NCBI GenBank assembly: GCA_964427245.1
Contig: CAYRSX010000038.1
Coordinates: forward strand, 2,495 to 66,494
Source: an uncultured Desulfobulbaceae bacterium
GTDB lineage: Bacteria > Desulfobacterota > Dissulfuribacteria > Dissulfuribacterales > DYLC01
Direction of reading: 5' to 3'
DNA length: 64,000 nt
The notes below the pieces were generated by a model. The model ran no database searches, was not told the origin of the DNA, and saw only the letters and a program-made list of their open reading frames with translations. Of this stretch, positions 3,026-50,841 are shown piece by piece; position 1 is the first letter of the stretch; each line of letters starts with the position of its first letter. Both the position numbers and the translations under genes were made by a program.

Positions 3026-3123
3026 TGGCGGAAGCGCATGGGAATCGAACCCACCCACGAAGCTCTTCACCTCGTGCACTGGATTTGAAGTCCAGGAGGG
3101 CCACCAGTGCCCTTTCCGCTTCC
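3026..3123 (-). tRNA. selC: tRNA-Sec (anticodon UCA)
   Basis: The reverse complement reads GGAAGCGGAAAGGGCACTGGTGGCCCTCCTGGACTTCAAATCCAGTGCACGAGGTGAAGAGCTTCGTGGGTGGGTTCGATTCCCATGCGCTTCCGCCA. It has the anticodon loop CTTCAAA (UCA), a long variable arm (CACGAGG/CTTCGTG), a TTCGATT T-loop, encoded CCA and a GGAAG... 5' end like E. coli selC. Length is 98 nt. Confidence 0.9.
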
Positions 3124-3492
3124 AGTGATATAGAAAAATAAAGGGTTTCCATTAGTTTGTCAATTGAAGGCCGCTATGATTCAGATTGATGACAAGGGGA
3201 AACATTGATCTTCTATAAAAAGATGCATTATGAATAATTAATAATCTTATTCATTATTACTTGCAATTAGTAGTTATCGATCTTATTCTTTTTACAAATA
3301 AGGGCTGGGTAACCCCGCTCTTATTATTGTATCTCGTTATTATTTTTGGTTAATTTTTTTCGTGATATTTGAGTGCCTTTCTGGTAGGTATGTTTCATGG
3401 TTGTAATCACTGCTGGCTTGGGAATGTTTTTTGTCTATGTGTGTTCTTCTGTTGCCTTCTGGTGTCAGAGCAAAACGAAAGGAGAAATTTTT

Positions 3493-6400
3493 ATGTTCAA
3501 AAAGGTCCGATTGGCTATGTTGATGACCATGGTTGGTATCTCATTGGTTTCTGTGGAAGCTTCCCGGGCAGAGGCAATGGATAGCTCCAAATTGTTTCAA
3601 GAATTGGTCAGGTATCATCAAAAGATACCGATAGAAGACAAGAAGGCTACGGCAATGGCAGATAGAAATAAAGGATTGCTGCCAGGAGCGGTTTCAACAT
3701 ACCTAACATCTTATAAGACGTCCTCTTCATCGGCACCAAACAGTTCTGCGGCTAAAAACATAACCGGTATTCAAGAACTGTCTGTATATTTGGGGGTTGC
3801 CTCCGATACCCGTGCAATGGAGATATATGCCCATAATATGCCCGTGCCGACGGTTCCACACTATTTTGGACCTTATGCCAACTGGGCATTCAGTCCCATG
3901 CCGCGCGGTCCAATCGCCAATATCGATGTGGTGAGTGGAGGTGACGGGTATTTCAATCCGCGAGTGGTGGTCGCTGATGTCTATGGAACTGGAATGGGTG
4001 CTACCGCTGCTGCAACTGTCTCAAACGGGGTCATCACCGATATCACCATCAACCAAGCTGGTTCTGATTACACAGCGCCCATGATAGTGGTGGAGGATGC
4101 CACAGGGACGGGTGCTATGGCAATGGCATCATTGGATGCCTCGAAATTGACCGGTGGTATTAGAAAATTTGTGGATTCTTTGCCGGGTGTAGGAGCATCC
4201 AACGCCAGTACACTAGATGGACACTATATTCCGCTTGCCATTCCTGATACTACCTCGTATCCAGGCAGCGATTACTATGAAATAGAACTGCGTGAGTATG
4301 AACATAGATTTCATTCCGATTTGCCACCTACCAGGCTTCGTGGTTATGTTCAGGTAAAGGACGGTTTAGATGTAACACCTATCAGTTATTTCGGCCCTAT
4401 AATAGTAGCTATAAAAGACAGGCCGGTACGCGTTAAATTCACGAACAAGCTGCCTGTTGGCGCTGGGGGCAAGCTGTTTCTGCCTGTGGATAAAACGGTG
4501 ATGGGGGCTGGCACAGGGCCATTGGCAGGTATGAATATGGGCAGGGATGACTTGACCTGTGATATGTCTCCTTTCGACTGTTATACTGAAAACAGAACCG
4601 CCATTCATCTTCACGGGAATAACTCGGCATGGATCAGTGACGGTACTCCACATCAATGGGTTACGCCTGCCGGAGAACAGACACCATATAAAAAAGGAGT
4701 AAGCGTTTTCAACGTACCTGATATGCCGGATCCAGGCGATGGCTCGTTGACCTTTTATTACACGAACAAACAGAGCGCCAGATTGCTTTGGTATCATGAT
4801 CACACCTACGGTCTGACCAGGCTCAATGTATATGCAGGGGAGGCGGCGGGTTATGCCGTGTTGGATTACGTAGAATACGATATGATAGCAGGGACCAACA
4901 CTACCGGTGTCAACCCAGGCAATTATAAGGTATTGCCCGATTATGGTATGCCGCTTGTATTGCAGGATAAGACATTTGTGGATGCCAGGACCATTGCCTA
5001 TCAGGATCCTACCTGGCGTTGGGGTACCACACCGTCCATGCCAAGGACGGGTGACTTGTGGTTTCCGCATGTTTATATGCCTGTTCAGAACGCCTATGAT
5101 CCATCCGGCATGAATCCGTTTGGTAGATGGCATTATGCCTTGTGGTTTTGGCCGCCTGCGACAGATCACCTTTCGTATCCACCCATTGCCAACCCCTATT
5201 ATGACCCTGTCAATGCGCCATGGGAACCGCCTTTTATGCCTGACTTGCCCAATCCTTCCATGCCTGGTGAGGCGTTTATGGATACTCCGGTTGTAAATGG
5301 TGTAGCCTATCCATATCTGGAAGTAGAGCCCAGGGCATACCGTTTTAGGCTGTTGAATGCCGCAAACGACAGGTATTTTAATCTTCAGTGGTATGTTGGT
5401 GTGGATAAAAATACTATGCAGGAGTGTGCCGCTACAACAAATTGTACGGAAGTTCGTATGGTGCCTGCAGTGGCAACCAATGGCTTCCCGTCTTCTTGGC
5501 CTGCAGATGGTAGAGATGGTGGCATCCCTGATCCATTTACAATAGGTCCTGATTGGATACAGATCGGTACAGAAGGAGGATTTCTGCCAGCACCTGTAGT
5601 TATTCCCAATCAGCCAGTTACTTGGAATATGGATCCAACTACCTTCAATTTCGGGAATGTGGATCTGCATTCTCTGCTTTTGGCGCCTGCTGAACGTGCT
5701 GATGTGATTGTGGATTTTTCGCAATTCGCAGGCAAAACCTTGATACTTTATAATGACGCACCTACTCCATTTCCTGCCCATGATCCGCATCTGGATTATT
5801 TTACCTATAACCCGGATCATACGGATATAGGTGGCGCTCCGCCTGCAAAGCCTGGTTATGGTCCGAATACCAGGACGATCATGCAAGTTCGTGTTAAGGA
5901 TATTCCATCTGCTGATCCGTATAACATTGAAAAATTGAAGTCCGTTTTTGCAAAAACATTCGGGAAAAGAGGCGTTTTTGAGGCAAGCCAAGAACCTATA
6001 ATTATTCCACAACCTTTTTACAACTCGGCTTATGACGCCAAGTTTCCTCAAAAGATCGTAAGACAGTTCGAACAGAGCGTGAGTTTTACTACGCTTGACG
6101 GTAAGAATGTAACCATACCTGTGTCGTCCAAGGCCATTCAGGACGAGATGGGCGAGACCTTCGATCCCATGTTTGGACGCATGAGCAGTATGCTCGGCTT
6201 GGAGCTGCCACCCAGCACTGTTGCAAAGGGTTTTATCGTCTATCCGTTTGCTTCTCCTCCCGTAGATATCATAAAGGGATCGGTGACCGGCACGCCTATC
6301 GGTAGTACGGAGGATGGCACTCAGATCTGGCGCATCACACACAACGGAGTGGATACGCATGCCGTTCATCTGCATCTGGTAAATTTCCAGCTCATTAACC

Positions 6401-7887
6401 GAGTTGCCTGGGATGGTTCGCTGCTGTTACCGGATGAAAACGAGTTGGGCTGGAAGGAGACCTTGCGCGTAAATCCTCTGGAACATACTATCATAGCTTT
6501 TAAGCCCACTATTCCGGATGTACCTTTTGATATCCCTAATAGTATCCACCCGATAGATCCGGCTAAGCCCATTGGGGCTATGCTCATGGGTCCTCCTGGC
6601 GGATTCCAGACCCCTACGGCCTTACCCATTACTATTTTGAATCACAATGTCAATTTCGGGTGGGAATATGTATGGCACTGTCATATGCTGGATCATGAAG
6701 AGATGGACATGATGCATGTGTTGAGTTTGGCGGCAAAGCCTGCCAAACCCCAATTAGAGGCTGCTATTATAGGTGCATCTCCTGCGATAAGTGTGAGACT
6801 GAATTGGTCTAAATCCCTTGGGGCCGACAATTATGTATTACAAAAGAGCAGCGATCCCGACATGCAGCACAATGTTACCAGTATGCCGCTGGGGAATATC
6901 ACGAGTTACTATGATCACGTGGGCGATATATATCAGCCGATCTATTATCGCGTCTATGCTACTACAGTGGTAGGCGACAAGGATACATCAGGTTTTCCTG
7001 TGACGACAGTACAGTCCGACTATTCCGACATCTTCTCCACTGCCACCAGGACATGGATGCCTCTTGCTGTTATGGCAAAGGCTACGCCGGGTGTAGTGTA
7101 TGAAAATGGCCGTATCCAGATGGTTATCTTGGATTTAGATGGGCAGTCAATTTTGATCAATGGTCTTGGCACTGACAATAGCTTCCTGGACACATGGAAG
7201 GTGGTAACCAATGCTAATTTTGGTCCAGCCTTGGCTTATGACAATCTTAACAATAAGCTTTATGTGGGTATTGTTGACAATTATATCATGAAGCTGGGCA
7301 GACTGGATTCAAGCTTTTTCGGTTTCATGTTGAACTGGCTGCCGGTCAGCATAGGTGGATCAGCCACGCCTGCAATCGTCTATAATTCGACTAACAGTAA
7401 GTTGTATATATCTGTCGTCAGTAACACAGCGATTTGGTGGAATACCTTCGATACGGTCTCCAATAGCAGTGCTAACTGGAGTTATTTGGGTATAACTTCA
7501 CCTTCGGCGCCATCCATGGCATATGACTCGGATCTGAACAATGTGTATATTGCTGTTCGTACGTTCAATAATACCATATCTCTGAGTGCGATAGACGGAG
7601 CGAGCGGTGATTTTAGCGGGTGGTTATCCATCGGGGGTATTTCGTCGGAGGCACCGGCTCTCGCCTATCATGCCAAAGACAAAAAACTTTACGTTGCCAT
7701 TCGTGATATGAACGATGAGATCGCTTTGGGGATTTTCAACATCTCCAGCCTTACTTTTGAAGGATGGAAGCCTTTGGGCGGAATAAAGACATACATGGCA
7801 CCATCCATGGTATGGAATGTCGCAACAGGCAAGGTAGATATATTTATCAAAGACGGTTTGGGCAGAGTCTTGAAGCTCTCTTATTGA
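3493..7887 (+). CDS. very large secreted multicopper oxidase-like protein with extra N- and C-terminal domains (Geobacter OmpB/OmpC-like architecture)
   Basis: SD AAAGGAG precedes the ATG at 3493, followed by signal peptide MFKKVRLAMLMTMVGISLVSVEASRAEA. The four MCO copper motifs are present: HLHG (TAIHLHGNN), WYHDH, HAVHLHLVNF and HCHMLDHEEMDMM. The C-terminus carries a W-initiated six-fold repeat. I rejected the ORF-track start at 3397 in favour of the SD plus signal peptide. Confidence 0.8.
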   Translation: MFKKVRLAMLMTMVGISLVSVEASRAEAMDSSKLFQELVRYHQKIPIEDKKATAMADRNKGLLPGAVSTYLTSYKTSSSSAPNSSAAKNITGIQELSVYLGVASDTRAMEIYAHNMPVPTVPHYFGPYANWAFSPMPRGPIANIDVVSGGDGYFNPRVVVADVYGTGMGATAAATVSNGVITDITINQAGSDYTAPMIVVEDATGTGAMAMASLDASKLTGGIRKFVDSLPGVGASNASTLDGHYIPLAIPDTTSYPGSDYYEIELREYEHRFHSDLPPTRLRGYVQVKDGLDVTPISYFGPIIVAIKDRPVRVKFTNKLPVGAGGKLFLPVDKTVMGAGTGPLAGMNMGRDDLTCDMSPFDCYTENRTAIHLHGNNSAWISDGTPHQWVTPAGEQTPYKKGVSVFNVPDMPDPGDGSLTFYYTNKQSARLLWYHDHTYGLTRLNVYAGEAAGYAVLDYVEYDMIAGTNTTGVNPGNYKVLPDYGMPLVLQDKTFVDARTIAYQDPTWRWGTTPSMPRTGDLWFPHVYMPVQNAYDPSGMNPFGRWHYALWFWPPATDHLSYPPIANPYYDPVNAPWEPPFMPDLPNPSMPGEAFMDTPVVNGVAYPYLEVEPRAYRFRLLNAANDRYFNLQWYVGVDKNTMQECAATTNCTEVRMVPAVATNGFPSSWPADGRDGGIPDPFTIGPDWIQIGTEGGFLPAPVVIPNQPVTWNMDPTTFNFGNVDLHSLLLAPAERADVIVDFSQFAGKTLILYNDAPTPFPAHDPHLDYFTYNPDHTDIGGAPPAKPGYGPNTRTIMQVRVKDIPSADPYNIEKLKSVFAKTFGKRGVFEASQEPIIIPQPFYNSAYDAKFPQKIVRQFEQSVSFTTLDGKNVTIPVSSKAIQDEMGETFDPMFGRMSSMLGLELPPSTVAKGFIVYPFASPPVDIIKGSVTGTPIGSTEDGTQIWRITHNGVDTHAVHLHLVNFQLINRVAWDGSLLLPDENELGWKETLRVNPLEHTIIAFKPTIPDVPFDIPNSIHPIDPAKPIGAMLMGPPGGFQTPTALPITILNHNVNFGWEYVWHCHMLDHEEMDMMHVLSLAAKPAKPQLEAAIIGASPAISVRLNWSKSLGADNYVLQKSSDPDMQHNVTSMPLGNITSYYDHVGDIYQPIYYRVYATTVVGDKDTSGFPVTTVQSDYSDIFSTATRTWMPLAVMAKATPGVVYENGRIQMVILDLDGQSILINGLGTDNSFLDTWKVVTNANFGPALAYDNLNNKLYVGIVDNYIMKLGRLDSSFFGFMLNWLPVSIGGSATPAIVYNSTNSKLYISVVSNTAIWWNTFDTVSNSSANWSYLGITSPSAPSMAYDSDLNNVYIAVRTFNNTISLSAIDGASGDFSGWLSIGGISSEAPALAYHAKDKKLYVAIRDMNDEIALGIFNISSLTFEGWKPLGGIKTYMAPSMVWNVATGKVDIFIKDGLGRVLKLSY

Positions 7888-11958: not shown

Positions 11959-12209
11959 GTGGCAGCGAACATTTACATGAAAGTTATAAGTTCTGGTTTT
12001 TTATTTTTGTGCCAAGGTGGGCCGTTTTTATAGACATGCTATTTTTTTATGCAATTAAAATAATAAGATACTGCTATTTTATAGCGCTTATGCTCATAAA
12101 AATCCTATTTTATGATATAGATAAAGCAAATTGATGTGTAAGTTGGCATTGACAATTCGAATATTGCTTTTTATAGGATTATCATCAAACTTTTATTAAG
12201 GAGGAGTCT

Positions 12210-13541
12210 ATGAAGTTCAAACAGTTGGGGCTGTTGTGTCTGAGCGGGTGTATGCTCGCAACGGTTGCCTACGGTGCCGCCAAGCCGGAAGCGTCCAAGC
12301 AGACCAAGGCCAAGACAATGGCTGAGCTGGCAGCTAGGTACGATTCCAAATCGTGTGAGGAATGTCATCCTGATGTGTATGAACAGTGGCAGAAGTCGAT
12401 TCACTCCCGTTCCCTTTTGGGTACGGGCCGCACTGCGCCTACTATTCTTACGGCCATCGATATGGGAATCAAAAAATTTCCATATTCTGGTGTAAAAGAG
12501 GATAAGGATCTGGAGGTCAGGCATTTCATGCTTTGTGCCAAGTGTCATTTGCCTCAGATCGACGAGGCGAGTGATGAAGTGGTAAGAGAGATCATAGCCA
12601 CTATTCGTGCCTGGCAAAAAGAGGACAACGACGCCAAAAGAGAAGAATTGGAAAAGAAGATCTCCAGCGTCAACATCGGCTGTATGGTTTGCCATAACAA
12701 GAAGGCCATCATTCATAAGTGGGCGGATGGTTATGCACAGCCTGATACCGTCTATGGCTCCAAGGCAGGCAAGCATGAACACCCCAAATTTGACAAAATG
12801 GCCAAGGCTCCGGCTTTGGGTGAGGCCATTTTCTGCGGCCAGTGTCATGGTTTAGGGCCCAATTTCGAGCTGGATGAACCTTCCCAGTGCGCCACTCTTT
12901 ATGGCAGTTATCTCTTCGCCTATGTGCCCGAGGGCGGCCATGAGAGCTGTCAGGAATGTCACATGAAGAAGTCCGGTCTGGGTCACGACATGGAGGCCTA
13001 TCGCAGTGAGGCCATGAGAAAAATGGCCATCAAGGCCGAGGTGGACGGCAGGACCTTGTTCTGGAGAAAAAACAAGAAAGAAGGCGTGGTGCCCATGGGC
13101 ATCATCAATGTGGAGCTTATGAATAAGGCTGGTCATGTCATTCCGGATGGGTGACCTACTCCAAACAGAGTGGTCCTGGAAGTGACCGCCAAAACCAATG
13201 ATGGAAAAGAGATATACAAGGAGCAGAAGATATATATGCCTTTCCCGGGTCGTTTGGGCCGTGGAGAAGAGATGGGCCGTGGTCCATATGAAAAGAGCGG
13301 CTTGCTGAGAGAAACCAGTCTGCCGCCTCTTCGTCCCGTGAAAGAGACCTTTGAGATTCCATTCCCCTATGTGGACACCACTAAGGACGGTAAGCCTTAT
13401 AGAGAGCTGGTCAAGGACGAGATGACTGTGTCCGTCAAACTCTGGTATGTACCGTTTGGTGAGTTTGATGGCAACGAGGTCCTTTTCTTCGGTGAGGAGA
13501 AGAAATTGGAGCTCAAGGGTGAGTGGGTGTGGCATAATTAG
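12210..13541 (+). CDS. periplasmic pentahaem cytochrome c with an in-frame TGA at 13152-13154, read here as a probable selenocysteine codon
   Basis: SD AAGGAGG, then signal peptide MKFKQLGLLCLSGCMLATVAYGAA. Five CxxCH motifs: CEECH, CAKCH, CMVCH, CGQCH, CQECH. ORFs 12210..13154 and 13170..13541 are in the same frame. The sequence across the TGA aligns with the uninterrupted paralogue at 45395..46735. Confidence 0.65.
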
Positions 13542-13572
13542 CTCTCATATTTTATAGAACTTGAAACACTAA

Positions 13573-13606
13573 GCGGAACAGACCGGCCAGTCTGTTCCGC
13601 TTTTTT
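13573..13606 (+). terminator. rho-independent terminator after the cytochrome gene
   Basis: GCGGAACAGAC-cggcca-GTCTGTTCCGC followed by TTTTTT. Confidence 0.85.
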
Positions 13607-43765: not shown

Positions 43766-44341
43766 ATGAAAAAACTAAGGGGAACTCAGACGGAAAGAAA
43801 CATCTTGACTGCCTTTGCGGGTGAGTCACAGGCCCGTAACCGCTATACCTTTTTTGCCAGCCAGGCAAAGAAAGACGGTTATGTGCAGATAGCCGATATC
43901 TTTGAAGAGACGGCTAATCAAGAAAAGGAACATGCCAAGAGGCTTTTTAAGTTGCTCGAGGGAGGCGAGGTGGAGATACGAGCCAGCTTTCCGGCAGGTG
44001 TTATATCCACTACGTATGACAATTTAATAGAGGCCGCCAATGGTGAAAACTATGAGCAGACCATCATGTATCCTGGTTTTGCTAAAATCGCCATTGAAGA
44101 AGGTTTTCAGGAGCTGTCTTGTATCTTCGAGGCCATAGCAGTGGCCGAAAGGCAGCACGAGAAGCGTTATCGTGAGTTGGCCGCAAATATTGTGGCGGAT
44201 CGTGTCTTCAAACGGGACACTGAGGTAGTCTGGCGGTGCCGCAACTGTGGTTATCTACATCAAGGTACGGCAGCGCCGGAAAAGTGTCCTGCATGTGCGC
44301 ACACAAAGGCGCATTTCGAGCTCTTGGCCGAGAACTGGTAA
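43766..44341 (+). CDS. rbr: rubrerythrin
   Basis: Ferritin-like diiron domain ([16 protein letters not shown]...EKEHAKR...ERQHEKR) plus a C-terminal rubredoxin-like WRCRNCGY...CPACAH. Confidence 0.9.
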
Positions 44342-44350
44342 TATTTTTAG

Positions 44351-44368
44351 TACAATTATTTAATTGTA
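44351..44368. promoter_or_regulatory. AT-rich palindrome between rbr and prx (candidate Fur/PerR-family operator)
   Basis: TACAATTA-TT-TAATTGTA has perfect 8-bp arms and lies about 40 nt upstream of the prx start. Confidence 0.35.
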
Positions 44369-44409
44369 ATTGCATGTCATATAAAACTATCAAAAAGGAG
44401 GTAATTCCC

Positions 44410-45048
44410 ATGTGTGAATTCGTTACAAAAGAGGCTCCCAATTTCAAGGCGATTGCTGTGATGCCCGACAACTCTTTTAAGGAGATTAGTCTTTCGGATT
44501 ACAGGGGAAAGTATGTGGTATTGTTTTTCTATCCTTTGGACTTCACCTTTGTGTGCCCCTCGGAGATACTGGCATTTGATAAGGCCGTAGATGAGTTTAA
44601 AAAGAGGGACTGTGAGGTGATAGGTGTGTCGGTGGACTCCCATTTCACACACTTGGCCTGGAAGGATACGCCGGTTGAAAAGGGCGGTATAGGTTGTGTC
44701 AGGTTCCCGTTGGTTGCGGACCTTTCCAAGGCCATTTCTCGGGATTATGGCGTGTTGCTGGAAAGTGGCATAGCTTTGCGCGGTCTGTTCCTCATCGACA
44801 AGGAAGGTATTGTGCGTCATATGCTTGTCAATGACCTGCCTTTGGGAAGAAGTGTGGATGAGGCTATTCGTGTGCTGGATGCCCTTCAGTTTGTGGAGAA
44901 ACACGGCGAGGTCTGTCCTGCTAACTGGAAGCCTGGTGAAGAGGCCATGAAACCCACCAAAGAAGGAGTGGCGGAGTATCTGGCTAAACATGCAAAGACA
45001 GGGGCATCCTGTTGTTCCACTTCCAGTGGTTCCTGCTGCTGTTCCTAA
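44410..45048 (+). CDS. typical 2-Cys peroxiredoxin (AhpC/Tsa family) with a poly-Cys C-terminal tail
   Basis: [15 protein letters not shown] (peroxidatic Cys), GEVCPANW (resolving Cys), tail [24 protein letters not shown] precedes the ATG at 44410. Confidence 0.85.
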
Positions 45049-45054
45049 TAGGCA

Positions 45055-45318
45055 TTATTTTGAGCGCAGCGAGAAATTGGGTGACAGGCGAGGCACTTGT
45101 CCTACTGTTAGAATGATAGAGGGTTTGCTCGGAATGACAACCGCACCACCGGTATGACAGGTGTCTCGCCTGTTATACAATGACAACAAGTGTCATTTCG
45201 AAGGAGCGCAGCGACTGAGAAATCTTGTTTTGAGATTGCTTCGTCTTCGGCTCGCGATGACAGTTGCGGAGCGAGCCCTCTTTACCTGTCATTCCGAGCG
45301 AAGCGAGGAATCTTAACA
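45055..45318. repeat. mosaic repeat cluster (M1, M2, inverted M1 variants, M6 fragment)
   Basis: ...TTTTGAGCGCAGCGAGAAATT..GACAGGCGAGGCACTTGTCC..AGAGGGTTTGCTCGGAATGACA..GACAGGTGTCTCGCCTGT..TGTCATTTCGAAGGAGCGCAGCGACTGAGAAATCTT..GAGATTGCTTCG..TGTCATTCCGAGCGAAGCGAGGAATCTTAA. Confidence 0.85.
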
Positions 45319-45394
45319 GTCTAAATGACAAAACATAAAACCAAAAGCAATGGTTGCCCTTTTTAGGGCCAGAAACTCTACAAGGAGAGAGATT

Positions 45395-46735
45395 ATGAAG
45401 AGACTTTTATCCGTTATAGCTGTGACTGCTGTGATGTCTGCACCATTGGTTGCGGGCGCGGCAGAGATGGGTAAGTTCAAATATGATGACTTTCAAAAAC
45501 CCAGTGAATGCGGTATGTGCCACACCGAGATACATCAGGAGTGGCAGCAGGCTATGATGTCTCAGTCCTTTACACATGAGTGGGACGAGGTGGAGTATTT
45601 CAAGCTCGCTCTGCCTCATGCGCAAAAGCTGGAGAAGGTCTCTGGAGTGAAGGCAGGTTGTATTGCTTGTCACGCGCCGTTGGCCTTTTTGTCCGGAGAC
45701 ATTCCACCCAAGCCAGTAAAGGCCGGCACACGCGCCAATGAGGGGGTATCCTGTGAGATATGCCATAACATCACCGGTTCCACCGAGCAGACTCCGTTCA
45801 ATTTCAGCTTCAACATTCAGCCTGGTGATGTTAAACAAGGGCCTCGCAAAGATGTGAAATCTCCTGGCCATGGCGTGAATTACTCTGAATTCACTCGTAG
45901 CCCGGAGCTCTGCGCCACATGCCACGATGAACAAAGTCCGTATGGCGCCTGGGTAAAGGAGACCTACAGGGAATGGAAGGCAGGGCCTTATGCCAAGGAA
46001 GGCGTGCGCTGTCAGGATTGTCACATGTATCATGCCCCTGGTGTGCCTGGGATGGGAGGTCAGGAACGTGCTGATATGGCGCATCATACCTTTCATGGCA
46101 GCCATTTTCCCAGCAAGCTGGCGGGTGCCATAGACCTGGCCATGTATGCCGAGCAGGAGTCTGTGTCTTCCGGCTCTGATCTGACTGTAAGAGCTGAGCT
46201 TTTTAATGGTAAGGTCGGCCACTATGTGCCGTCTGGTTCCACTGAAGAGCGTATGCTCTGGTTAGAGGTTTGGCTGACCGATGCCAAGGGGAAGAAATAT
46301 GCACTTAAAGTGCAGCCTAAGGGTTTTAAGGGCGAGGAATACACCGTAGCCGATTCAAAGGCCATGGCTTACCAGGATATTGGTGAGATAATGGAGCTGA
46401 CCAATTTCAAAGGGTTGAAGCGTGATGGTAATGTGCCGGATGGTGCTCGTATCTTCAGACGCCCGTTCTTCAACCCCAAAGGCGAGATGACAGTGGCGCA
46501 GTGGTACACGGCCAAAAATGATCTGGTGGACTATCGTGTTGGTCCTCGAGAGACCAAGATCGAGCACTTCAGACTTTCTTTGCCCAAGGAGATGGCCAAG
46601 GGGAAGGCGGTCGTAATTGCAAGACTGCTTTACGGCCAGATCCCAAGCTCGGTGGGTGAGTTCTTCAAGCTCTCCAAGGAGGAATATGCCCCTATTCTGG
46701 TCAATGAAGCCAGAGTGACGGTGGATGTAAAATAG
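45395..46735 (+). CDS. periplasmic pentahaem cytochrome c (uninterrupted paralogue of 12210..13541)
   Basis: SD AAGGAG, signal peptide MKRLLSVIAVTAVMSAPLVAGAA. Five CxxCH motifs: CGMCH, CIACH, CEICH, CATCH, CQDCH. It contains GHYVPSGSTEERMLWLEV and a C-terminal non-haem domain. Confidence 0.8.
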   Translation: MKRLLSVIAVTAVMSAPLVAGAAEMGKFKYDDFQKPSECGMCHTEIHQEWQQAMMSQSFTHEWDEVEYFKLALPHAQKLEKVSGVKAGCIACHAPLAFLSGDIPPKPVKAGTRANEGVSCEICHNITGSTEQTPFNFSFNIQPGDVKQGPRKDVKSPGHGVNYSEFTRSPELCATCHDEQSPYGAWVKETYREWKAGPYAKEGVRCQDCHMYHAPGVPGMGGQERADMAHHTFHGSHFPSKLAGAIDLAMYAEQESVSSGSDLTVRAELFNGKVGHYVPSGSTEERMLWLEVWLTDAKGKKYALKVQPKGFKGEEYTVADSKAMAYQDIGEIMELTNFKGLKRDGNVPDGARIFRRPFFNPKGEMTVAQWYTAKNDLVDYRVGPRETKIEHFRLSLPKEMAKGKAVVIARLLYGQIPSSVGEFFKLSKEEYAPILVNEARVTVDVK

Positions 46736-46841
46736 TTGAACAAAAGGCTCTTTGGTTTATTTAGATTAGGCTGAAGTAAGGGCAATTCTGTGTGATTGCC
46801 CCACTAAAATTAGTAGTTGATACTTGAAAGGAGGTATTACA

Positions 46842-47216
46842 ATGACCGAAAGACTACAGGTTTATAAGTGTGAGATCTGTGGAAACATGGTGGAAATGGT
46901 GCATACAGGTGTGGGCCAGTTGGTATGCTGTGGTCAGCCCATGAAGCTGATGTCCGAAAATACCGTGGATGCATCCAAGGAAAAGCATGTGCCAGTCATC
47001 GAAAAGGTGAATGGTGGTTACAAGGTTAAGGTGGGTTCCGTCCCTCATCCCATGGAGGAAAAGCACTATATCGAGTGGATCGAACTCATAGTCGATGGCA
47101 AGGCATATCGGGAGTTCCTTGCCCCTGGCCAGGCGCCGGAGGCCTTCTTCTGTATTCAGGCCGATAGTGTCACTGCAAGAGAGTATTGCAATTTGCACGG
47201 CCTCTGGAAGGCGTAA
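46842..47216 (+). CDS. dfx: desulfoferrodoxin (class I superoxide reductase)
   Basis: N-terminal desulforedoxin motif [24 protein letters not shown], then an SOR domain (EKHVPVIE...[14 protein letters not shown]...CNLHGLW). Confidence 0.9.
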
Positions 47217-47239
47217 TCGTTAAGAGAATTATTCTTTCA

Positions 47240-47271
47240 GGGACAGGTCGGAATGGAACCGCTCCTGTCCC
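47240..47271 (+). terminator. hairpin after dfx (possible terminator or attenuator)
   Basis: GGGACAGG-16 nt-CCTGTCCC followed by GTTTCT. The U-tract is weak. Confidence 0.4.
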
Positions 47272-47308
47272 GTTTCTAACTGTTCTCTACCTTAAAAAGG
47301 AGCAAAAA

Positions 47309-47836
47309 ATGTTGAACTCAAGACTCGAGGCAGCACTTAATCAGCAGATCAATGCCGAGCTCTATTCGGCATATCTATATTTTTCCATGGCATCATATCT
47401 TGCCTCCATAGACCTGGCTGGATGTGCCCATTACATGCATGCCCAGACACAGGAGGAGCTTTTGCATGCATCCAAAATGTATGAATACGTTAATGAAAGA
47501 GGCGGTAGAGTTATTATGGATGCTATAAAGGCCCCAAAGACTCAGTGGAGCTCGCCCCTCGAGGCATTTGGGGACGCTTACAAACATGAACAACATGTGA
47601 CGAGCCTGATAAACAATCTCATGGAGTTGGCTATTGCTGAGAAAGACCATGCCACACAGATCTTTTTGCAGTGGTTTATATCGGAGCAGGTGGAGGAAGA
47701 GGCCTTTGCCAATGCAGTGGTGCAGCGCATGAATCTGGCCAACAATGCACAGGGCGGGCTTTTTATGATTGACAAGGAACTGGCGGCCCGTCCTCTGACC
47801 TTTGTGCTTGCAGCCAATAAAACCCAAGGAGAATAA
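47309..47836 (+). CDS. ftn: non-haem ferritin
   Basis: LNQQINAELYSAYLYFSMASY...EELLHASKMYEYVNERGG...QHVT...FLQWFISEQVEEE are Ftn ferroxidase-centre motifs. SD AAGGAG precedes the ATG at 47309. Confidence 0.85.
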   Translation: MLNSRLEAALNQQINAELYSAYLYFSMASYLASIDLAGCAHYMHAQTQEELLHASKMYEYVNERGGRVIMDAIKAPKTQWSSPLEAFGDAYKHEQHVTSLINNLMELAIAEKDHATQIFLQWFISEQVEEEAFANAVVQRMNLANNAQGGLFMIDKELAARPLTFVLAANKTQGE

Positions 47837-47839
47837 TGT

Positions 47840-48247
47840 ATGAGCAGACCTGAAGATATGTGGCAGTGCCAGACCATCAATTGCGGTTATATCTATGATC
47901 CGGATCGGGGTGATAGAAAGGGTAAAATTCCTAAAGGAACTAAATTTGAGGACCTGCTCGATGACTGGAAATGTCCAGTCTGTGGTGCGGGTAAGTCTAT
48001 GTTCAGGCCTCTGGCAGGTCCTGGTTCTGTAATGGCACAGGATGTAAAAAAGACCGCTGATGCAGTTTCTGCAGCTAATGTAGATGTAGGATCAAAATAT
48101 AGATGCAATGTATGCGGCTACATTTATGATCCAGCGGTAGGGGATAGTTCACAAGGGATTGCAACTGGTACGTCTTTTGATGCCTTGCCAGACAACTGGA
48201 AGTGCCCTGTGTGTGGGGCCAGCAAAGAGGAATTTGAGGAGATCTGA
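47840..48247 (+). CDS. tandem rubredoxin (a CX4C-type Rd-like domain fused to a canonical CX2C rubredoxin)
   Basis: Domain 1 is [14 protein letters not shown]...[10 protein letters not shown]. Domain 2 is [12 protein letters not shown]...[10 protein letters not shown]. Confidence 0.85.
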
Positions 48248-48248
48248 T

Positions 48249-48599
48249 ATGGCCAAAAAAATGGCTATATTCGCCTTTAGAGGCGATTCAATGTGTTTCG
48301 TCCATGTCCTCTTAAATGCCCTTGACTTGTATGCCAGGGGCATGGGAGGCGATATCGTTGTGGAAGGTGAGGCAACGAAGCTTCTTCCAATCCTTGAAGA
48401 TTCCACTCATTTTTTGCACGGCCTATATAAACAGGTAAAAGAAAAAGGCCTGATTGTTGCTGTTTGTAAGGCATGTTCCAGCAAAATGGGTGTGTTTGAG
48501 CAGATAAAGTCCATGGGACTGCCCTTGAGCGATGAGATGTCGGGGCACCCAAGTATGGGCCGTTTTTTGGAACAAGGCTTTGAGATTATCGTAATGTAA
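48249..48599 (+). CDS. small DsrE/DsrF-like fold protein (tentative)
   Basis: 116 aa, MAKKMAIFAFRGDSMCFVHVLLNALDL...LIVAVCKACS... The DsrE-like resemblance is weak and comes from memory only. Confidence 0.4.
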   Translation: MAKKMAIFAFRGDSMCFVHVLLNALDLYARGMGGDIVVEGEATKLLPILEDSTHFLHGLYKQVKEKGLIVAVCKACSSKMGVFEQIKSMGLPLSDEMSGHPSMGRFLEQGFEIIVM

Positions 48600-48609
48600 A
48601 GGAGAAAAT

Positions 48610-49806
48610 ATGATTACTGAAATCAAAAAGGATATCTATTGGGTGGGTGCCATTGACTGGACCATTCGAGACTTTCACGGCTATTCCACCTATGAGGGCA
48701 CCACATATAACGCATATCTGTTGAAGGACGAAAAGACTGTGCTCTTCGACACGGTCAAGAAGTCCAAGATGAGCGATCTGGTACACCATGTTCGCTCTCT
48801 TACAGACCCTCAGAGAATCGATTACATCGTGGTCAATCATGTGGAGATGGATCATTCTGGTTCCCTTCCTGAGATGATCGACCTCATCAAGCCGGAAAAG
48901 GTTATCTGTTCCACTATGGGGAAAAAGGCCCTTTTGGACCATTTTCATCGAGAAGATTGGCCGTATGAGGTGGTTGCACCAGGCCAGGTGATCAGCGTTG
49001 GCAAGCGCTCCATTCAGTTCATCGAGACGCGCATGCTGCACTGGCCAGACAGCATGTTTTCATATATCCCTGAAGAGAAGCTGCTCATCTCCAGCGATGC
49101 ATTTGGCGAACACTGGGCCACCAGTGAGCGTTTCGATGATGAAGTAGATTTCACCACCCTCATGCGACACAACGCCAAATATTATGCAAACATATTGCTT
49201 TTATATTCTCCTTTGGTGGGGAAACTTATAGAGAATGTCAAAAAGCTCGGGCTTCAAATCGACATGATCGCCCCTGATCATGGCCTCATTAAGCGGAAAT
49301 ACGTAGCCGATATGTTGCAGGCATACGCTGACTGGGCTGCACACAAGGCCAAGAAGAAGGCGGTAGTGGTCTATGACACCATGTGGCACAGCACAGAGAT
49401 GATGGCCAAGGCAGTGGCGGACGGTATCATGCGCGAGGGCGTGAGCGTAAAGCTCATGGATTTGCAGGTCTGCCACAGAAGCGATGTCATGACCGAGGTC
49501 TTGGATGCCAAGGCAGTGGTATTGGGCTGCCCCACGTTGAATAACGGCTTGCTGCCACGCATGGCGGGTTTTCTCATGTATATGCGGGGGCTCAAGCCGA
49601 GCGGCAAGATCGGTGTTGCTTTTGGTTCTTATGGCTGGAGCGGCGAGGCTGTTAAGCTCATGAATCAGGCTATGGAAGAGATGAAATTTGAGGTGGTTCA
49701 TGATGGTATTCGTGTAAAGTATGTGCCTGTTCATGAAAACCTCAAGGAGTGTGTTGAATTAGGCAAAAAAGTAGGGCAGGCTATTAATGCCGCCTTGAAT
49801 GATTGA
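48610..49806 (+). CDS. flavodiiron protein (rubredoxin:oxygen/NO oxidoreductase, FprA/ROO type)
   Basis: Metallo-beta-lactamase-like diiron motif VNHVEMDHSGSLPE plus a C-terminal flavodoxin domain (KKAVVVYDTMWHSTE...GCPTLNNG). Confidence 0.9.
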   Translation: MITEIKKDIYWVGAIDWTIRDFHGYSTYEGTTYNAYLLKDEKTVLFDTVKKSKMSDLVHHVRSLTDPQRIDYIVVNHVEMDHSGSLPEMIDLIKPEKVICSTMGKKALLDHFHREDWPYEVVAPGQVISVGKRSIQFIETRMLHWPDSMFSYIPEEKLLISSDAFGEHWATSERFDDEVDFTTLMRHNAKYYANILLLYSPLVGKLIENVKKLGLQIDMIAPDHGLIKRKYVADMLQAYADWAAHKAKKKAVVVYDTMWHSTEMMAKAVADGIMREGVSVKLMDLQVCHRSDVMTEVLDAKAVVLGCPTLNNGLLPRMAGFLMYMRGLKPSGKIGVAFGSYGWSGEAVKLMNQAMEEMKFEVVHDGIRVKYVPVHENLKECVELGKKVGQAINAALND

Positions 49807-49813
49807 GGTGCCT

Positions 49814-50143
49814 ATGCGTATAAATGTGGATAAAAATGTCGTGGAATTTGTGCCAGAAAATGCCCAGGAGACCGCATCTATGGAGGTTTTGTGGCGTATG
49901 GTATTGGATTGTGCCGGCGGCAACAACAAAAGCTTGTCTCCTATCGGTGAATATGTGCCGCAAAAGGAGAACCTGGCGCGTTTTGTGATCGAGGGCATGT
50001 CCGGTGGGAAGATCGTCTTCTCCGAGGTGGTTTCAGAGGTGGAGTGCACATATCTGTGTACAATTTGTAACAAGTATATCAGCGTCCATGCCGGTCAAGC
50101 CGTTCCTTATTGTTGCGGCCGTCTCATGGAGGCGGTGGATTGA
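49814..50143 (+). CDS. uncharacterised protein with a C-terminal desulforedoxin-like Cys4 motif
   Basis: The C-terminus YLCTICNKYISVHAGQAVPYCCGRLM parallels the Dfx N-terminus [27 protein letters not shown] (CxxC...CC). I do not recognise the N-terminal ~75 aa. SD GAGGTG precedes the ATG at 49814. Confidence 0.6.
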   Translation: MRINVDKNVVEFVPENAQETASMEVLWRMVLDCAGGNNKSLSPIGEYVPQKENLARFVIEGMSGGKIVFSEVVSEVECTYLCTICNKYISVHAGQAVPYCCGRLMEAVD

Positions 50144-50148
50144 TAATT

Positions 50149-50237
50149 AGATTTCTCGCTTTGCTCGAAATGACAGCCATTGCTACATTGAGCCATTTTG
50201 TTGTTATTTCGAGCCTGTGAAACAGGCGAGAAATCTT
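50149..50237. repeat. mosaic repeat cluster (inverted M1, M1/M2 hybrid)
   Basis: AGATTTCTCGCTTTGCTCGAAATGACA ... TGTTATTTCGAGCCTGTGAAACAGGCGAGAAATCTT. Confidence 0.8.
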
Positions 50238-50274
50238 GTTCCATATTCGCTGCCCTCTCTATCCTTCTTGCGAT

Positions 50275-50841
50275 ATGCCATTTTCCCATTATACCGAACA
50301 CAGAAGTATTAAAAAGGCCTTTTTGACGGAGGGTGTCAATGAACTTCTTGCGAGGTTGTCCCATCTGCCTGTCACTATAGCGCTGCATTCCACCCTTTCG
50401 GCAGTCTATTCCATAGATGCCCCTGTGCGTTCAAAGGCCGTTCAAATCTTTGGCATTCTCATGTCTCGGTTGGCCGATCAGTCCATGGAATCAGCCAGAC
50501 AGGTGATGCGCAGGCTTATCTGGAGCTTGAATGACGAATCAGGAGGTATAGGCTGGGGTGCACCTGAGGCCATGGCCGAGGCAATGGCCTTGCACGAAGG
50601 TCTGGCTCAAGAATATGCACACATGCTTCTTTCCTACGTGTGGGAGGAGGGGAATTATCTGGAATATCTGCCTTTGCGTCAAGGGGCATTGAAGGGTATT
50701 GCAAGACTGGCCTGCGCTCGACCTGCCTTGATGAAGTCGCTTGGCGCCGAGGAGAGACTGCATGAATATGTGGCCGATGAGGATAATGAGTCCAGACAGG
50801 CAGCTCTGACTGCTCTGTCCTGTTTGAAGGATGGCCCATGA
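50275..50841 (+). CDS. HEAT-repeat-like protein (resembles the DVU0298 family as I recall it)
   Basis: RLIWSLNDESGGIGWGAPEAMAEAMALHEGLAQEYAHMLLSYVWEEGNYLEYLPLRQGALKGIARLA. The start is uncertain; I chose the ATG at 50275, downstream of the repeat cluster. ATGA overlap with the next gene. Confidence 0.5.
   Translation: MPFSHYTEHRSIKKAFLTEGVNELLARLSHLPVTIALHSTLSAVYSIDAPVRSKAVQIFGILMSRLADQSMESARQVMRRLIWSLNDESGGIGWGAPEAMAEAMALHEGLAQEYAHMLLSYVWEEGNYLEYLPLRQGALKGIARLACARPALMKSLGAEERLHEYVADEDNESRQAALTALSCLKDGP

What the first reader, a model, noticed from the sequence alone, without database searches (positions are those of the whole stretch)
12210..13541. In-frame TGA joins two ORFs into one pentahaem cytochrome c: a probable selenocysteine-containing multihaem cytochrome
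ORF 12210..13154 encodes a signal peptide and five CxxCH motifs and ends at TGA 13152-13154. The same frame then stays open for another 129 codons to 13541, and that stretch has no convincing SD or ATG of its own.

Across the TGA the protein reads ELMNKAGHVIPDG-[TGA]-PTPNRVVLEVTAKTNDGKEIY. This aligns column for column with the uninterrupted paralogue at 45395..46735 (ELFNGKVGHYVPSG-S-TEERMLWLEVWLTDAKGKKY). The TGA therefore occupies a position where the paralogue has Ser, and the downstream ORF corresponds to the paralogue's C-terminal non-haem domain.

A tRNA-Sec gene lies 10 kb upstream, and a hairpin follows the TGA at a SECIS-compatible distance. Selenocysteine in a multihaem cytochrome is very unusual. 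I recall that a Sec-linked fusion has been proposed for the Geobacter ExtK/ExtL pair, but I cannot verify any relationship to that family. A redox-active Sec next to five haems suggests chemistry beyond simple electron transfer, for example peroxide, sulfur or selenium species.
Basis: partly seen in the sequence, partly recalled or inferred. Interest (0 to 1): 0.8.

Follow-up and report, generated by a model that had tools for sequence, protein, structure and literature searches.

The report
Known selenocysteine pentahaem cytochrome MccSep (ExtKL)

Summary
ORF 12210..13154 has a signal peptide and five CxxCH motifs and ends at TGA 13152-13154. The same frame stays open to TAG 13539-13541.

The joined 443-aa protein matches NCBIfam NF040886, "multiheme c-type cytochrome (seleno)protein ExtKL", end to end (581 bits, cutoff 250). 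It also matches the crystal structures of Geobacter sulfurreducens MccSep (PDB 9wt8/9wt9, E 1e-149, about 52% identity).

The TGA aligns with Sec325. The haem-2 ligands His122 and Cys239, Arg83, Lys372 and the D-G-U-P loop are all conserved.

In 80 related loci the codon is TGA in 77 and TGT or TGC in 3. It is always followed in frame by P[TS]PNR.VL.VT. The final stops are mixed.

A conserved hairpin at 13170-13189 shows compensatory changes and strongly suppressed synonymous variation, as expected of a SECIS element. A tRNA-Sec gene lies at 3026-3123.

Mihara et al. (Sci Adv 2026) showed that MccSep is a tetrameric, Sec-dependent polysulfide (and selenite) reductase needed for sulfur respiration.

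This copy differs mainly in context. It is a solitary gene with its own terminator, not part of the Geobacter ext cluster, in a Dissulfuribacterales-like genome.

Verdict: real and correctly interpreted, but already known.

The parts
12210..13541 (+). mccsep (extKL) coding sequence, 443 codons including one in-frame UGA (Sec315), stop TAG 13539-13541
   Evidence: NF040886 equivalog, 581 bits, profile 7-423/423. PDB 9wt8/9wt9 MccSep, E 1e-149, residues 19-433 against 28-443.
12198..12204 (+). Shine-Dalgarno AAGGAGG, 5 nt before ATG 12210
   Evidence: Read directly from the sequence.
12149..12177 (+). Possible sigma-70 promoter TTGACA-17 nt-TATAGG (by eye only)
   Evidence: Read. It did not pass the stricter consensus scan, so this part is inferred.
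12210..12275 (+). Signal peptide (MKFKQLGLLCLSGCMLATVAYG), probable signal-peptidase I site AYG/AA
   Evidence: Sequence. G. sulfurreducens MccSep is processed after residue 25 and is periplasmic (PMC13510729). The LSGC lipobox-like match is not conserved in homologues (32/120).
12354..12368 (+). Haem 1 motif CEECH (residues 49-53)
12534..12548 (+). Haem 2 (active-site haem) motif CAKCH (residues 109-113). His113 corresponds to the proximal ligand His122 of MccSep.
   Evidence: PMC13510729
12681..12695 (+). Haem 3 motif CMVCH (residues 158-162)
12834..12848 (+). Haem 4 motif CGQCH (residues 209-213)
12948..12962 (+). Haem 5 motif CQECH (residues 247-251)
12888..12890 (+). Cys227 codon, equivalent to Cys239 of MccSep (distal ligand of haem 2, catalytic)
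   Evidence: Alignment to 9wt8, position check, role from PMC13510729.
12429..12431 (+). Arg74 codon, equivalent to Arg83 (anion/substrate site)
13152..13154 (+). UGA read as selenocysteine (Sec315, equivalent to Sec325 of MccSep) within the conserved D-G-U-P loop
   Evidence: Aligned with X (Sec) in 9wt8 and with Ala in the U325A mutant 9wt9. TGA in 77/80 related loci and TGT/TGC in 3/80. TGA is otherwise a normal stop in this window, 14/30 genes.
13170..13189 (+). SECIS-like hairpin. Stem GUGGUC(C)/(G)-GACCGC with apical loop UGGAA and a bulged U. The loop starts 22 nt after the UGA.
   Evidence: 87.9% of cells paired, against 21-61% for slid controls. CG->UA at pair 24-33 (4 sequences) and GC->CG at pair 19-38 (6 sequences). 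RNAalifold recovers the core 5 bp on its own. Third-position entropy is 0-0.8 bits inside the hairpin against 1.8-2.0 bits in flanking four-fold codons.
13155..13538 (+). C-terminal Ig-like beta-sandwich domain (the former 'ExtL'), containing Lys362 (13293-13295, equivalent to Lys372)
   Evidence: Aligned to residues 326-443 of 9wt8. Domain description from PMC13510729. Found fused without interruption in the Cys-type homologues P0124, P0132 and P0162.
13571..13602 (+). Intrinsic terminator: 13-bp stem, 6-nt loop, T-run
3026..3123 (-). tRNA-Sec (anticodon UCA), the decoding tRNA. It is 9 kb upstream and not functionally linked by position.
   Evidence: ARAGORN; Rfam RF01852, 74.1 bits. Same position next to aroB in relative L001.

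Best explanation
Window 12210-13541 is one gene. It encodes a periplasmic pentahaem c-type cytochrome selenoprotein of the MccSep (= ExtKL, GSU2937-2936) family.

**Translation.** UGA 13152-13154 is decoded as selenocysteine by Sec-tRNA(Sec) with SelB, directed by the hairpin at 13170-13189.

**Product.** The protein has an N-terminal alpha-helical five-haem domain and a C-terminal Ig-like domain. The Ig-like domain carries Sec315 into the distal pocket of haem 2, which is ligated by His113 and Cys227.

**Mechanism, by homology with the characterised G. sulfurreducens enzyme.**
- The selenolate attacks polysulfide (or selenite).
- A Sec-Se-S-S-Cys intermediate forms with the haem-ligating Cys.
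- Electrons delivered through the haem chain cleave the intermediate and release sulfide.

**Shown here:** the single reading frame, family membership, conservation of all catalytic residues, the Sec/Cys column, the conserved SECIS-like hairpin and the tRNA-Sec gene.

**Inferred:** actual Sec insertion in this organism, the tetrameric state, polysulfide as the physiological substrate, and the electron donor. No partner gene is adjacent.
For: - **Family.** NF040886 equivalog hit, E 1.1e-174, 581 bits against cutoff 250, full length.
- **Structure homologue.** PDB MccSep 9wt8/9wt9, E about 1e-149, 51.6% identity over 413 columns.
- **Catalytic residues.** Arg74, His113, Cys227, D313-G314-U315-P316 and Lys362 are conserved.
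- **Sec/Cys column.** 77/80 loci have TGA and 3/80 have TGT/TGC at the same column. All continue in frame with P[TS]PNR.VL.VT. The terminal stops are a mix of TAA, TAG and TGA.
- **Protein-level selection right after the UGA.** The codons immediately after it vary freely at third positions while the amino acids stay fixed.
- **SECIS hairpin.** Covariation and suppression of synonymous change.
- **tRNA-Sec** is present.
- **Cys-type full-length proteins exist**.
- **Published experiments on the orthologue.** A 49-kDa read-through product, 0.96 Se per subunit, the MS peptide VEMTNHAGHSIPDGUPTPNR, polysulfide and selenite reductase activity, loss of activity in U325A/C and C239H, and a growth defect of the deletion strain on S0 (PMC13510729).
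Against: - No selA, selB or selD lies in the 64-kb window, so the full Sec machinery is unverified for this genome.
- The hairpin is not thermodynamically exceptional (z -0.06).
- No Rfam SECIS model matches it.
- The hairpin differs from that of the experimentally proven Geobacter gene.
- The gene is not in an ext cluster, and no electron-donor or sulfur-transfer partner is adjacent. The physiological role here could therefore differ.
- No experimental data exist for this organism.
Confidence: 0.93

Rival explanations
1. There are two separate genes, as gene callers annotate them. A 314-aa pentahaem cytochrome (ExtK-like) terminates at TGA, and a small downstream protein (ExtL-like) is initiated independently, for example at ATG 13236 behind AAGGAG 13218-13223.
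For: All 120 best database proteins end at ...GHxxPDG. C-terminal fragments are called as separate small proteins. An SD-like AAGGAG lies 12 nt before an in-frame ATG.
Against: - The stop is TGA in 77/77 interrupted loci, never TAA or TAG, while true terminal stops are mixed.
- 3 of 80 loci carry Cys codons and have uninterrupted ORFs.
- The 27 codons between the TGA and the ATG are the best-conserved part of the C-terminal region and show synonymous-only variation.
- Called fragment starts are inconsistent, at C-terminal positions 1, 6, 10, 11, 21 and 28.
- The orthologue gives one 49-kDa selenium-containing polypeptide, and its crystal structure is continuous across the site (PMC13510729).
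Confidence: 0.03
2. The TGA is a nonsense mutation or a sequencing or assembly error in a gene that normally has Cys (or another residue) there. The locus would then be a pseudogene or an artefact.
For: Cys-type homologues exist. A single-base change turns TGT or TGC into TGA.
Against: - The same TGA occurs in 77 independent genomes across Desulfobacterota and Nitrospirota.
- The identical N-terminal protein occurs in an independent read-set assembly.
- The downstream frame is intact and under purifying selection.
- The SECIS-like hairpin is conserved only in TGA-type loci. It is disrupted in the TGT loci L068 and L071 and only partly retained in the TGC locus L080.
Confidence: 0.01
3. It is a true Sec-containing MccSep orthologue, but in this Dissulfuribacterales-like organism its physiological job is not respiratory S0/polysulfide reduction as in Geobacter. 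It might serve the reductive (sulfide-forming) branch of sulfur disproportionation, or selenite detoxification. Electrons would come from a general periplasmic cytochrome pool rather than the Ext bc-type module.
For: - The nearest relatives are Dissulfuribacterales MAGs (96% and 94% identity, conserved synteny).
- The paper notes homologues in sulfur disproportionators (Thermosulfurimonas dismutans, Desulfurivibrio alkaliphilus).
- The gene is solitary, with its own SD and terminator, between gmhA and cheX.
- No neighbour is conserved across 81 loci.
- The Geobacter enzyme also reduces selenite.
Against: - All catalytic residues are identical to those of the polysulfide reductase, so the chemistry is probably the same.
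- Disproportionation capacity of this organism is inferred from taxonomy only.
- Nothing in the window points to a sulfur-disproportionation pathway.
Confidence: 0.25

Closest known systems
MccSep / ExtKL (GSU2937-2936) of Geobacter sulfurreducens PCA; PDB 9wt8, 9wt9, 9wta-c; NCBIfam NF040886; Mihara et al., Sci Adv 2026 (PMC13510729)
   Same: Same length and architecture: signal peptide, five CxxCH motifs and a C-terminal Ig-like domain. About 52% identity over 413 columns. Sec at the same D-G-U-P site. His/Cys ligands of haem 2, Arg83 and Lys372 are conserved. A stem-loop follows the UGA.
   Different: - **Context.** The Geobacter gene sits in extHIJKLMNOPQS, with a rhodanese, a porin, 10- and 12-haem cytochromes and a Rieske/cytochrome b module (PMC5877670). 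This copy is a solitary transcription unit between gmhA and cheX.
- **SECIS hairpin.** It differs in sequence and register: GGUC..GACC with loop UGGAA here, against CCGAC-UGGUUCU-GUCGG in Geobacteraceae loci.
- **Cys240.** The non-conserved Cys240 is Ala228 here.
Cys-type MccSep homologues (e.g. Desulfobulbus elongatus DSM 2908 locus L068; proteins P0124, P0132, P0162)
   Same: Same family and architecture, with the same ...GH..PDG-[C]-P.P.. motif.
   Different: They carry TGT or TGC instead of TGA. The hairpin is disrupted in L068 and L071 and only partly kept in L080. In the Geobacter enzyme the U325C variant is severely impaired, so Cys types may be slower or otherwise adapted.
Pentahaem cytochrome c552-like proteins (PDB 5ze8) and the window's own paralogue 45395-46735
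   Same: Five CxxCH motifs, similar length, a GHxxP.G motif followed by a beta-rich C-terminal domain, and a distant alignment across the site.
   Different: Only 21% identity. Ser sits at the Sec column and there is no equivalent of the haem-ligating Cys227. The score is below the NF040886 cutoff (59 against 250 bits). It is probably not a polysulfide reductase. It lies in an oxidative-stress gene cluster.
His/Cys-ligated haem enzymes of sulfur metabolism (TsdA, SoxAX) and other multihaem enzymes (NrfA, MccA, octahaem tetrathionate reductase, the last also listed as a selenoprotein family)
   Same: Catalysis at a c-type haem fed by a haem chain. His/Cys ligation as in TsdA and SoxAX (discussion of PMC13510729). 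The review table lists an octahaem tetrathionate reductase family as GenBank-annotated selenoproteins.
   Different: The sequences are unrelated. No Sec sits next to a His/Cys haem in TsdA or SoxAX. The substrate does not bind the iron directly in MccSep. These comparisons rest on the paper and were not tested here.

Membership tests
MccSep / ExtKL multihaem cytochrome c selenoprotein (NF040886) | Full-length match to the curated equivalog model above its cutoff | tested here: met
   581 bits against cutoff 250, profile positions 7-423 of 423
MccSep / ExtKL multihaem cytochrome c selenoprotein (NF040886) | Five conserved CxxCH haem-binding motifs | tested here: met
   Residues 49, 109, 158, 209 and 247, each aligned to the motifs of 9wt8
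MccSep / ExtKL multihaem cytochrome c selenoprotein (NF040886) | Sec (UGA) or Cys at the conserved D-G-[U/C]-P site | tested here: met
   UGA 13152-13154 aligns with Sec325 (X) of 9wt8. The column is TGA in 77 and TGY in 3 of 80 loci.
MccSep / ExtKL multihaem cytochrome c selenoprotein (NF040886) | His/Cys axial ligands of the active-site haem 2 (His122, Cys239), plus Arg83 and Lys372 | tested here: met
   His113, Cys227, Arg74 and Lys362 are at the aligned positions. Actual ligation is not testable by sequence.
MccSep / ExtKL multihaem cytochrome c selenoprotein (NF040886) | C-terminal Ig-like domain contiguous with the haem domain | tested here: met
   Same frame with no gap. Aligned to 9wt8 through residue 443. 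The fold itself was not modelled here.
MccSep / ExtKL multihaem cytochrome c selenoprotein (NF040886) | SECIS-like stem-loop within about 30-40 nt downstream of the UGA | tested here: met
   Hairpin 13170-13189, with covariation and synonymous-site suppression. No Rfam model matches. SelB binding is untested.
MccSep / ExtKL multihaem cytochrome c selenoprotein (NF040886) | Periplasmic export signal | tested here: inconclusive
   The N-terminus MKFKQ-LGLLCLSGCMLATVAYG-AAKPE looks like a Sec signal peptide. No signal-peptide predictor was available. The lipobox-like LSGC is not conserved.
MccSep / ExtKL multihaem cytochrome c selenoprotein (NF040886) | Homotetramer with polysulfide/selenite reductase activity that depends on Sec | not testable with these tools
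   Known only for the G. sulfurreducens enzyme (PMC13510729)
Bacterial selenoprotein (general) | Sec-decoding machinery in the genome (selC, selA, selB, selD) | tested here: inconclusive
   selC (tRNA-Sec) is present at 3026-3123. selA, selB and selD are not among the window genes screened. The rest of the genome was unavailable.
Geobacter ExtHIJKL(MNOPQS) electron-conduit gene cluster | Co-location with extH (rhodanese), extI (porin), extJ and the downstream extM-S cytochrome / Rieske / cytochrome b genes | tested here: not met
   The upstream genes are gmhA, ComEC and an SprA-related gene. Downstream there is a terminator, then cheX, a PHP phosphatase and miaB on the other strand. The gene is an MccSep orthologue but not part of an Ext cluster.

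The most novel reading that the evidence does not exclude
The most novel reading the evidence leaves open concerns physiology, not the gene itself. In this Dissulfuribacterales-like lineage a solitary MccSep, with no Ext porin, rhodanese or bc-type module, would serve as the sulfide-forming half-reaction of elemental-sulfur disproportionation. It would be fed by a generic periplasmic cytochrome pool. That would make it a marker enzyme for a process whose enzymology is still largely unknown.
Probability: 0.25. Interest if true: 0.45.

Novelty: already known. Interest (0 to 1): 0.22.

Why it matters
As a discovery it adds little. The family, its Sec site, its SECIS-like elements, its structure and its function are published and curated.

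Its practical value lies in annotation. All 120 best database entries for this family are truncated at the UGA, so a sulfur-cycle enzyme is systematically mis-called as a plain 'cytochrome c' plus a small hypothetical protein.

The solitary context, and the absence of any conserved neighbour across 81 loci, suggest that the enzyme does not need the Geobacter Ext module. That is relevant to how sulfur reducers and disproportionators outside Geobacter wire it to their electron-transport chains.

Tried and rejected
- **Rfam scan of 13100-13300 at E up to 10.** Only chance matches to a miRNA and a snoRNA, no SECIS family.
- **Single-sequence folding of 13140-13230.** The energy is no better than that of shuffles, so thermodynamics alone cannot support the SECIS.
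- **A two-tier SECIS.** I looked for a lower stem near the UGA paired with the DG-codon region, as seen in some single-sequence folds. RNAalifold does not support it as a conserved feature.
- **An alternative hairpin pairing GACC of UGA-CC with GGUC (window 13153-13175).** It appears in the minimum-energy fold of the window sequence but competes with the conserved hairpin. I did not test it further.
- **Search for conserved neighbours** such as electron donors or sulfur-transfer proteins. None was found.
- **Search for selA, selB and selD in the window.** None was found.
- **The fused protein with U replaced by C** could not be submitted to the representative-protein search. I searched the C-terminal domain alone instead.
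- **Lipoprotein hypothesis from the LSGC motif.** Rejected as not conserved.
- **Structure prediction.** Not run, because a crystal structure of a 52%-identical orthologue exists.
Full report
**1. Observation**

- ORF 12210..13154 encodes 314 residues, with an N-terminal hydrophobic leader and five CxxCH motifs at residues 49, 109, 158, 209 and 247. It ends at TGA 13152-13154.
- The same frame continues for 128 sense codons to TAG 13539-13541.
- Only 2.4% of all stop-to-stop segments in the six frames of this window are that long.
- A strong intrinsic terminator follows at 13571-13602. A good Shine-Dalgarno sequence (AAGGAGG, 12198-12204) precedes the ATG.
- A tRNA-Sec gene lies at 3026-3123 on the minus strand.
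- TGA is otherwise an ordinary stop codon in this window, ending 14 of 30 confidently identified genes. Any read-through is therefore site-specific and not a change of genetic code.

There are three small corrections.
- The 'paralogue' at 45395..46735 does align across the TGA with Ser in that column, but it is only 21% identical (E 4e-7).
- The downstream stretch does contain an in-frame ATG (13236) with AAGGAG 12 nt upstream.
- The hairpin after the TGA is not thermodynamically exceptional by itself (z -0.06).

**2. What it is**

The fused 443-residue protein, with Cys substituted for the TGA in the searches, matches one curated family from end to end. This is NCBIfam NF040886, 'multiheme c-type cytochrome (seleno)protein ExtKL', an equivalog model (E 1.1e-174, 581 bits against a cutoff of 250, profile positions 7-423 of 423).

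Against the PDB it matches the 'multiheme cytochrome c selenoprotein (MccSep)' of Geobacter sulfurreducens. The entries are 9wt8, 9wta and 9wtb, plus 9wt9 and 9wtc, the first of which is the U325A mutant. The match has E about 1e-149 over residues 19-433 against 28-443, with 51.6% identity over 413 aligned columns.

The TGA codon aligns exactly with the Sec (X) of the wild-type chain and with the Ala of the U325A mutant. Every residue that the structural paper identifies as catalytic is present:

| Window residue | MccSep equivalent |
|---|---|
| Arg74 | Arg83 |
| His113 | His122 |
| Cys227 | Cys239 |
| Asp313-Gly314-Sec315-Pro316 | D323-G324-U325-P326 |
| Lys362 | Lys372 |

**3. Comparative test of recoding against termination**

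All 120 best hits in the protein database are 286-346 residues long and end in ...GHxx[P/A]DG, the residue just before the TGA.

A scan of one genome per species returned 80 loci. They come from Dissulfuribacterales, Desulfobulbales, other Desulfobacterota, Nitrospirota and Geobacteraceae.
- The codon after ...PDG is TGA in 77 loci. It is TGT in two (including Desulfobulbus elongatus DSM 2908) and TGC in one.
- It is never TAA or TAG. The real terminal stops of the same genes are a mixture of TAA, TAG and TGA.
- The downstream frame is always open, for about 105-133 codons where the contig allows. It begins at once with the conserved P[TS]PNR.VL.VT.
- The three four-fold-degenerate codons directly after the TGA have third-position entropies of 1.8-2.0 bits while their amino acids are conserved. 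That stretch is therefore translated and under purifying selection.

A search with the C-terminal 128 residues alone found only 44 clusters. Most are short fragments whose called starts fall at inconsistent positions (1, 6, 10, 11, 21, 28). A few are full-length proteins of 421-455 residues, three of them with ...PDG-C-P....

This is the classical Sec/Cys signature. It excludes both a two-gene arrangement and a pseudogene.

**4. SECIS**

No Rfam family matches the region. An ungapped alignment of 74 TGA-type sequences (60 distinct) nevertheless shows a conserved hairpin at alignment columns 19-38, which is window 13170-13189. The stem is GUGGUC(C)/(G)-GACCGC and the apical loop is UGGAA, starting 22 nt after the UGA.
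- 87.9% of cells are paired, against 21-61% when the 3' partners are slid by 1-3 columns.
- Compensatory changes occur: CG->UA at pair 24-33 in four sequences, GC->CG at pair 19-38 in six, and one GC->AU at pair 22-35.
- RNAalifold independently recovers the core five pairs as the only consensus helix apart from a 2-bp G-C stem at the very 5' end, which spans the Gly codon and the UGA.
- Synonymous variation is strongly suppressed inside the element. Third-position entropy is 0.00, 0.75, 0.00, 0.72 and 0.82 bits for the Leu/Val, Val, Leu, Val and Thr codons. It is 1.8-2.0 bits for the flanking Pro, Thr, Pro and Ala codons.
- The hairpin is disrupted in the two TGT loci and only partly retained in the TGC locus.
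- Geobacteraceae loci carry a different hairpin (CCGAC-UGGUUCU-GUCGG), closer to the UGA. The element is therefore not conserved in sequence across clades. I have not shown that SelB binds either form.

**5. How it works**

The mechanism is known from the orthologue (Mihara et al., Sci Adv 2026, PMC13510729).
- G. sulfurreducens produces one 49-kDa periplasmic polypeptide from gsu2937-2936.
- It contains 4.9 Fe and 0.96 Se per subunit, and the peptide VEMTNHAGHSIPDGUPTPNR was identified by mass spectrometry. The window encodes VELMNKAGHVIPDG-U-PTPNR.
- The enzyme is a homotetramer. Each subunit has a five-haem alpha-helical cap and an Ig-like stem.
- Haem 2 is ligated by His and Cys, and Sec325 from the Ig-like domain sits about 3.6 A from the ligating Cys.
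- It reduces polysulfide (apparent K0.5 0.19 mM) and, less efficiently, selenite.
- The U325A, U325C and C239H variants are nearly inactive, and the deletion strain is impaired in S0 respiration.
- In the proposed cycle the selenolate attacks the substrate, a Sec-Se-(S/Se)-S-Cys intermediate forms, and the haem chain reduces it.

All of these residues are conserved here, so the same chemistry is the best-supported mechanism for the window protein. This is inference by homology, not a demonstration.

**6. What differs here**

In Geobacter the gene is embedded in extHIJKLMNOPQS. That cluster holds a rhodanese, a porin, multihaem cytochromes and a Rieske/cytochrome b module (PMC5877670).

In this window it is a solitary unit.
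- Upstream lie an SprA-related gene, ComEC and gmhA.
- Downstream there is a terminator, then cheX, a PHP phosphatase, a bifunctional-nuclease-domain gene and miaB on the opposite strand.
- This arrangement is shared only with the two nearest relatives, a Dissulfuribacterales MAG (96% identity) and a Deltaproteobacteria MAG (94% identity).
- Across 81 loci, the 80 related loci plus the window, no neighbouring gene family occurs in more than 15, and the commonest is a generic response regulator.

The electron donor is therefore unidentified. The published paper also leaves it open. The physiological role in a lineage known for sulfur disproportionation could be the reductive branch of that process. 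This is the only reading with some novelty, and I give it about 0.25.

**7. Known or new**

The family is already known.
- It was predicted in silico as a selenoprotein years ago, as cited in PMC5877670.
- It is curated as NF040886.
- It is listed in a 2026 review of prokaryotic selenoproteins (PMC13188914).
- It was characterised structurally, biochemically and genetically in 2026.
- The same paper catalogued 637 homologues, mostly from Desulfobacterota and Nitrospirota MAGs, with Sec/Cys alternation and SECIS-like stem-loops.

The finding is not new.

**8. Verdict**

Interest is low, at about 0.2.

The residual value is twofold. It is a reminder that automated annotation splits this enzyme (120 of 120 database entries are truncated). 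The context analysis also suggests that MccSep works independently of the Ext cluster outside Geobacteraceae.

Noticed in passing
window 43766-52655 (cytochrome at 45395-46735): The 'paralogue' is a pentahaem cytochrome distantly like PDB 5ze8 cytochrome c552 (E 1.9e-9). It has Ser at the Sec column and no equivalent of the haem-ligating Cys. It sits in what looks like an oxidative/nitrosative-stress cluster: rubrerythrin, peroxiredoxin, ferritin, flavorubredoxin-like protein and a sigma-54 NorR-like regulator. A multihaem cytochrome in that company might be a peroxidase or an NO-related enzyme.
   Followed up: partly
window 3397-7887 (+), next to tRNA-Sec 3026-3123: A 1496-aa ORF has only weak multicopper-oxidase domain matches. 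It lies between tRNA-Sec and the SprA-related gene. In the nearest relative, L001, tRNA-Sec (1534-1631) is followed after about 200 bp by the SprA-related gene, so this giant gene is absent there. It may be an insertion at the tRNA gene.
   Followed up: partly
loci L021, L028, L035, L051, L052 (first 35 nt after the TGA): Geobacteraceae/Desulfuromonadaceae-type mccsep genes lack the GGUC..GACC hairpin. They have CCGAC-UGGUUCU-GUCGG, about 6 nt closer to the UGA, which can extend into a stem that includes the UGA itself. The SECIS has apparently been remodelled between clades while the peptide stayed conserved.
   Followed up: partly
protein P0142 (455 aa): A full-length family member has Thr, neither Sec nor Cys, at the catalytic column (...GHSIPDSTSLNRR...). 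It keeps the haem-ligating Cys. It may be an inactive or differently functioning variant.
   Followed up: no
window 13218-13238; locus L081 1973-2332: An in-frame ATG (13236) with AAGGAG 12 nt upstream lies inside the C-terminal domain. Gene callers use this or nearby GTG/CTG codons to call a spurious small downstream gene.
   Followed up: yes
loci L031 and L069 (downstream of the Sec codon): In these two Nitrospirota MAG loci the C-terminal frame ends early, at a TGA after 71 and 63 codons. L069 also has a match length that is not a multiple of three. These are probably indel errors in long-read assemblies, but I did not check.
   Followed up: no
window 12240-12251 (residues 11-14, LSGC): A lipobox-like motif lies inside the signal peptide. 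It is conserved only in the closest relative and in some unrelated homologues (32/120), so it is probably chance rather than a lipoprotein anchor.
   Followed up: yes
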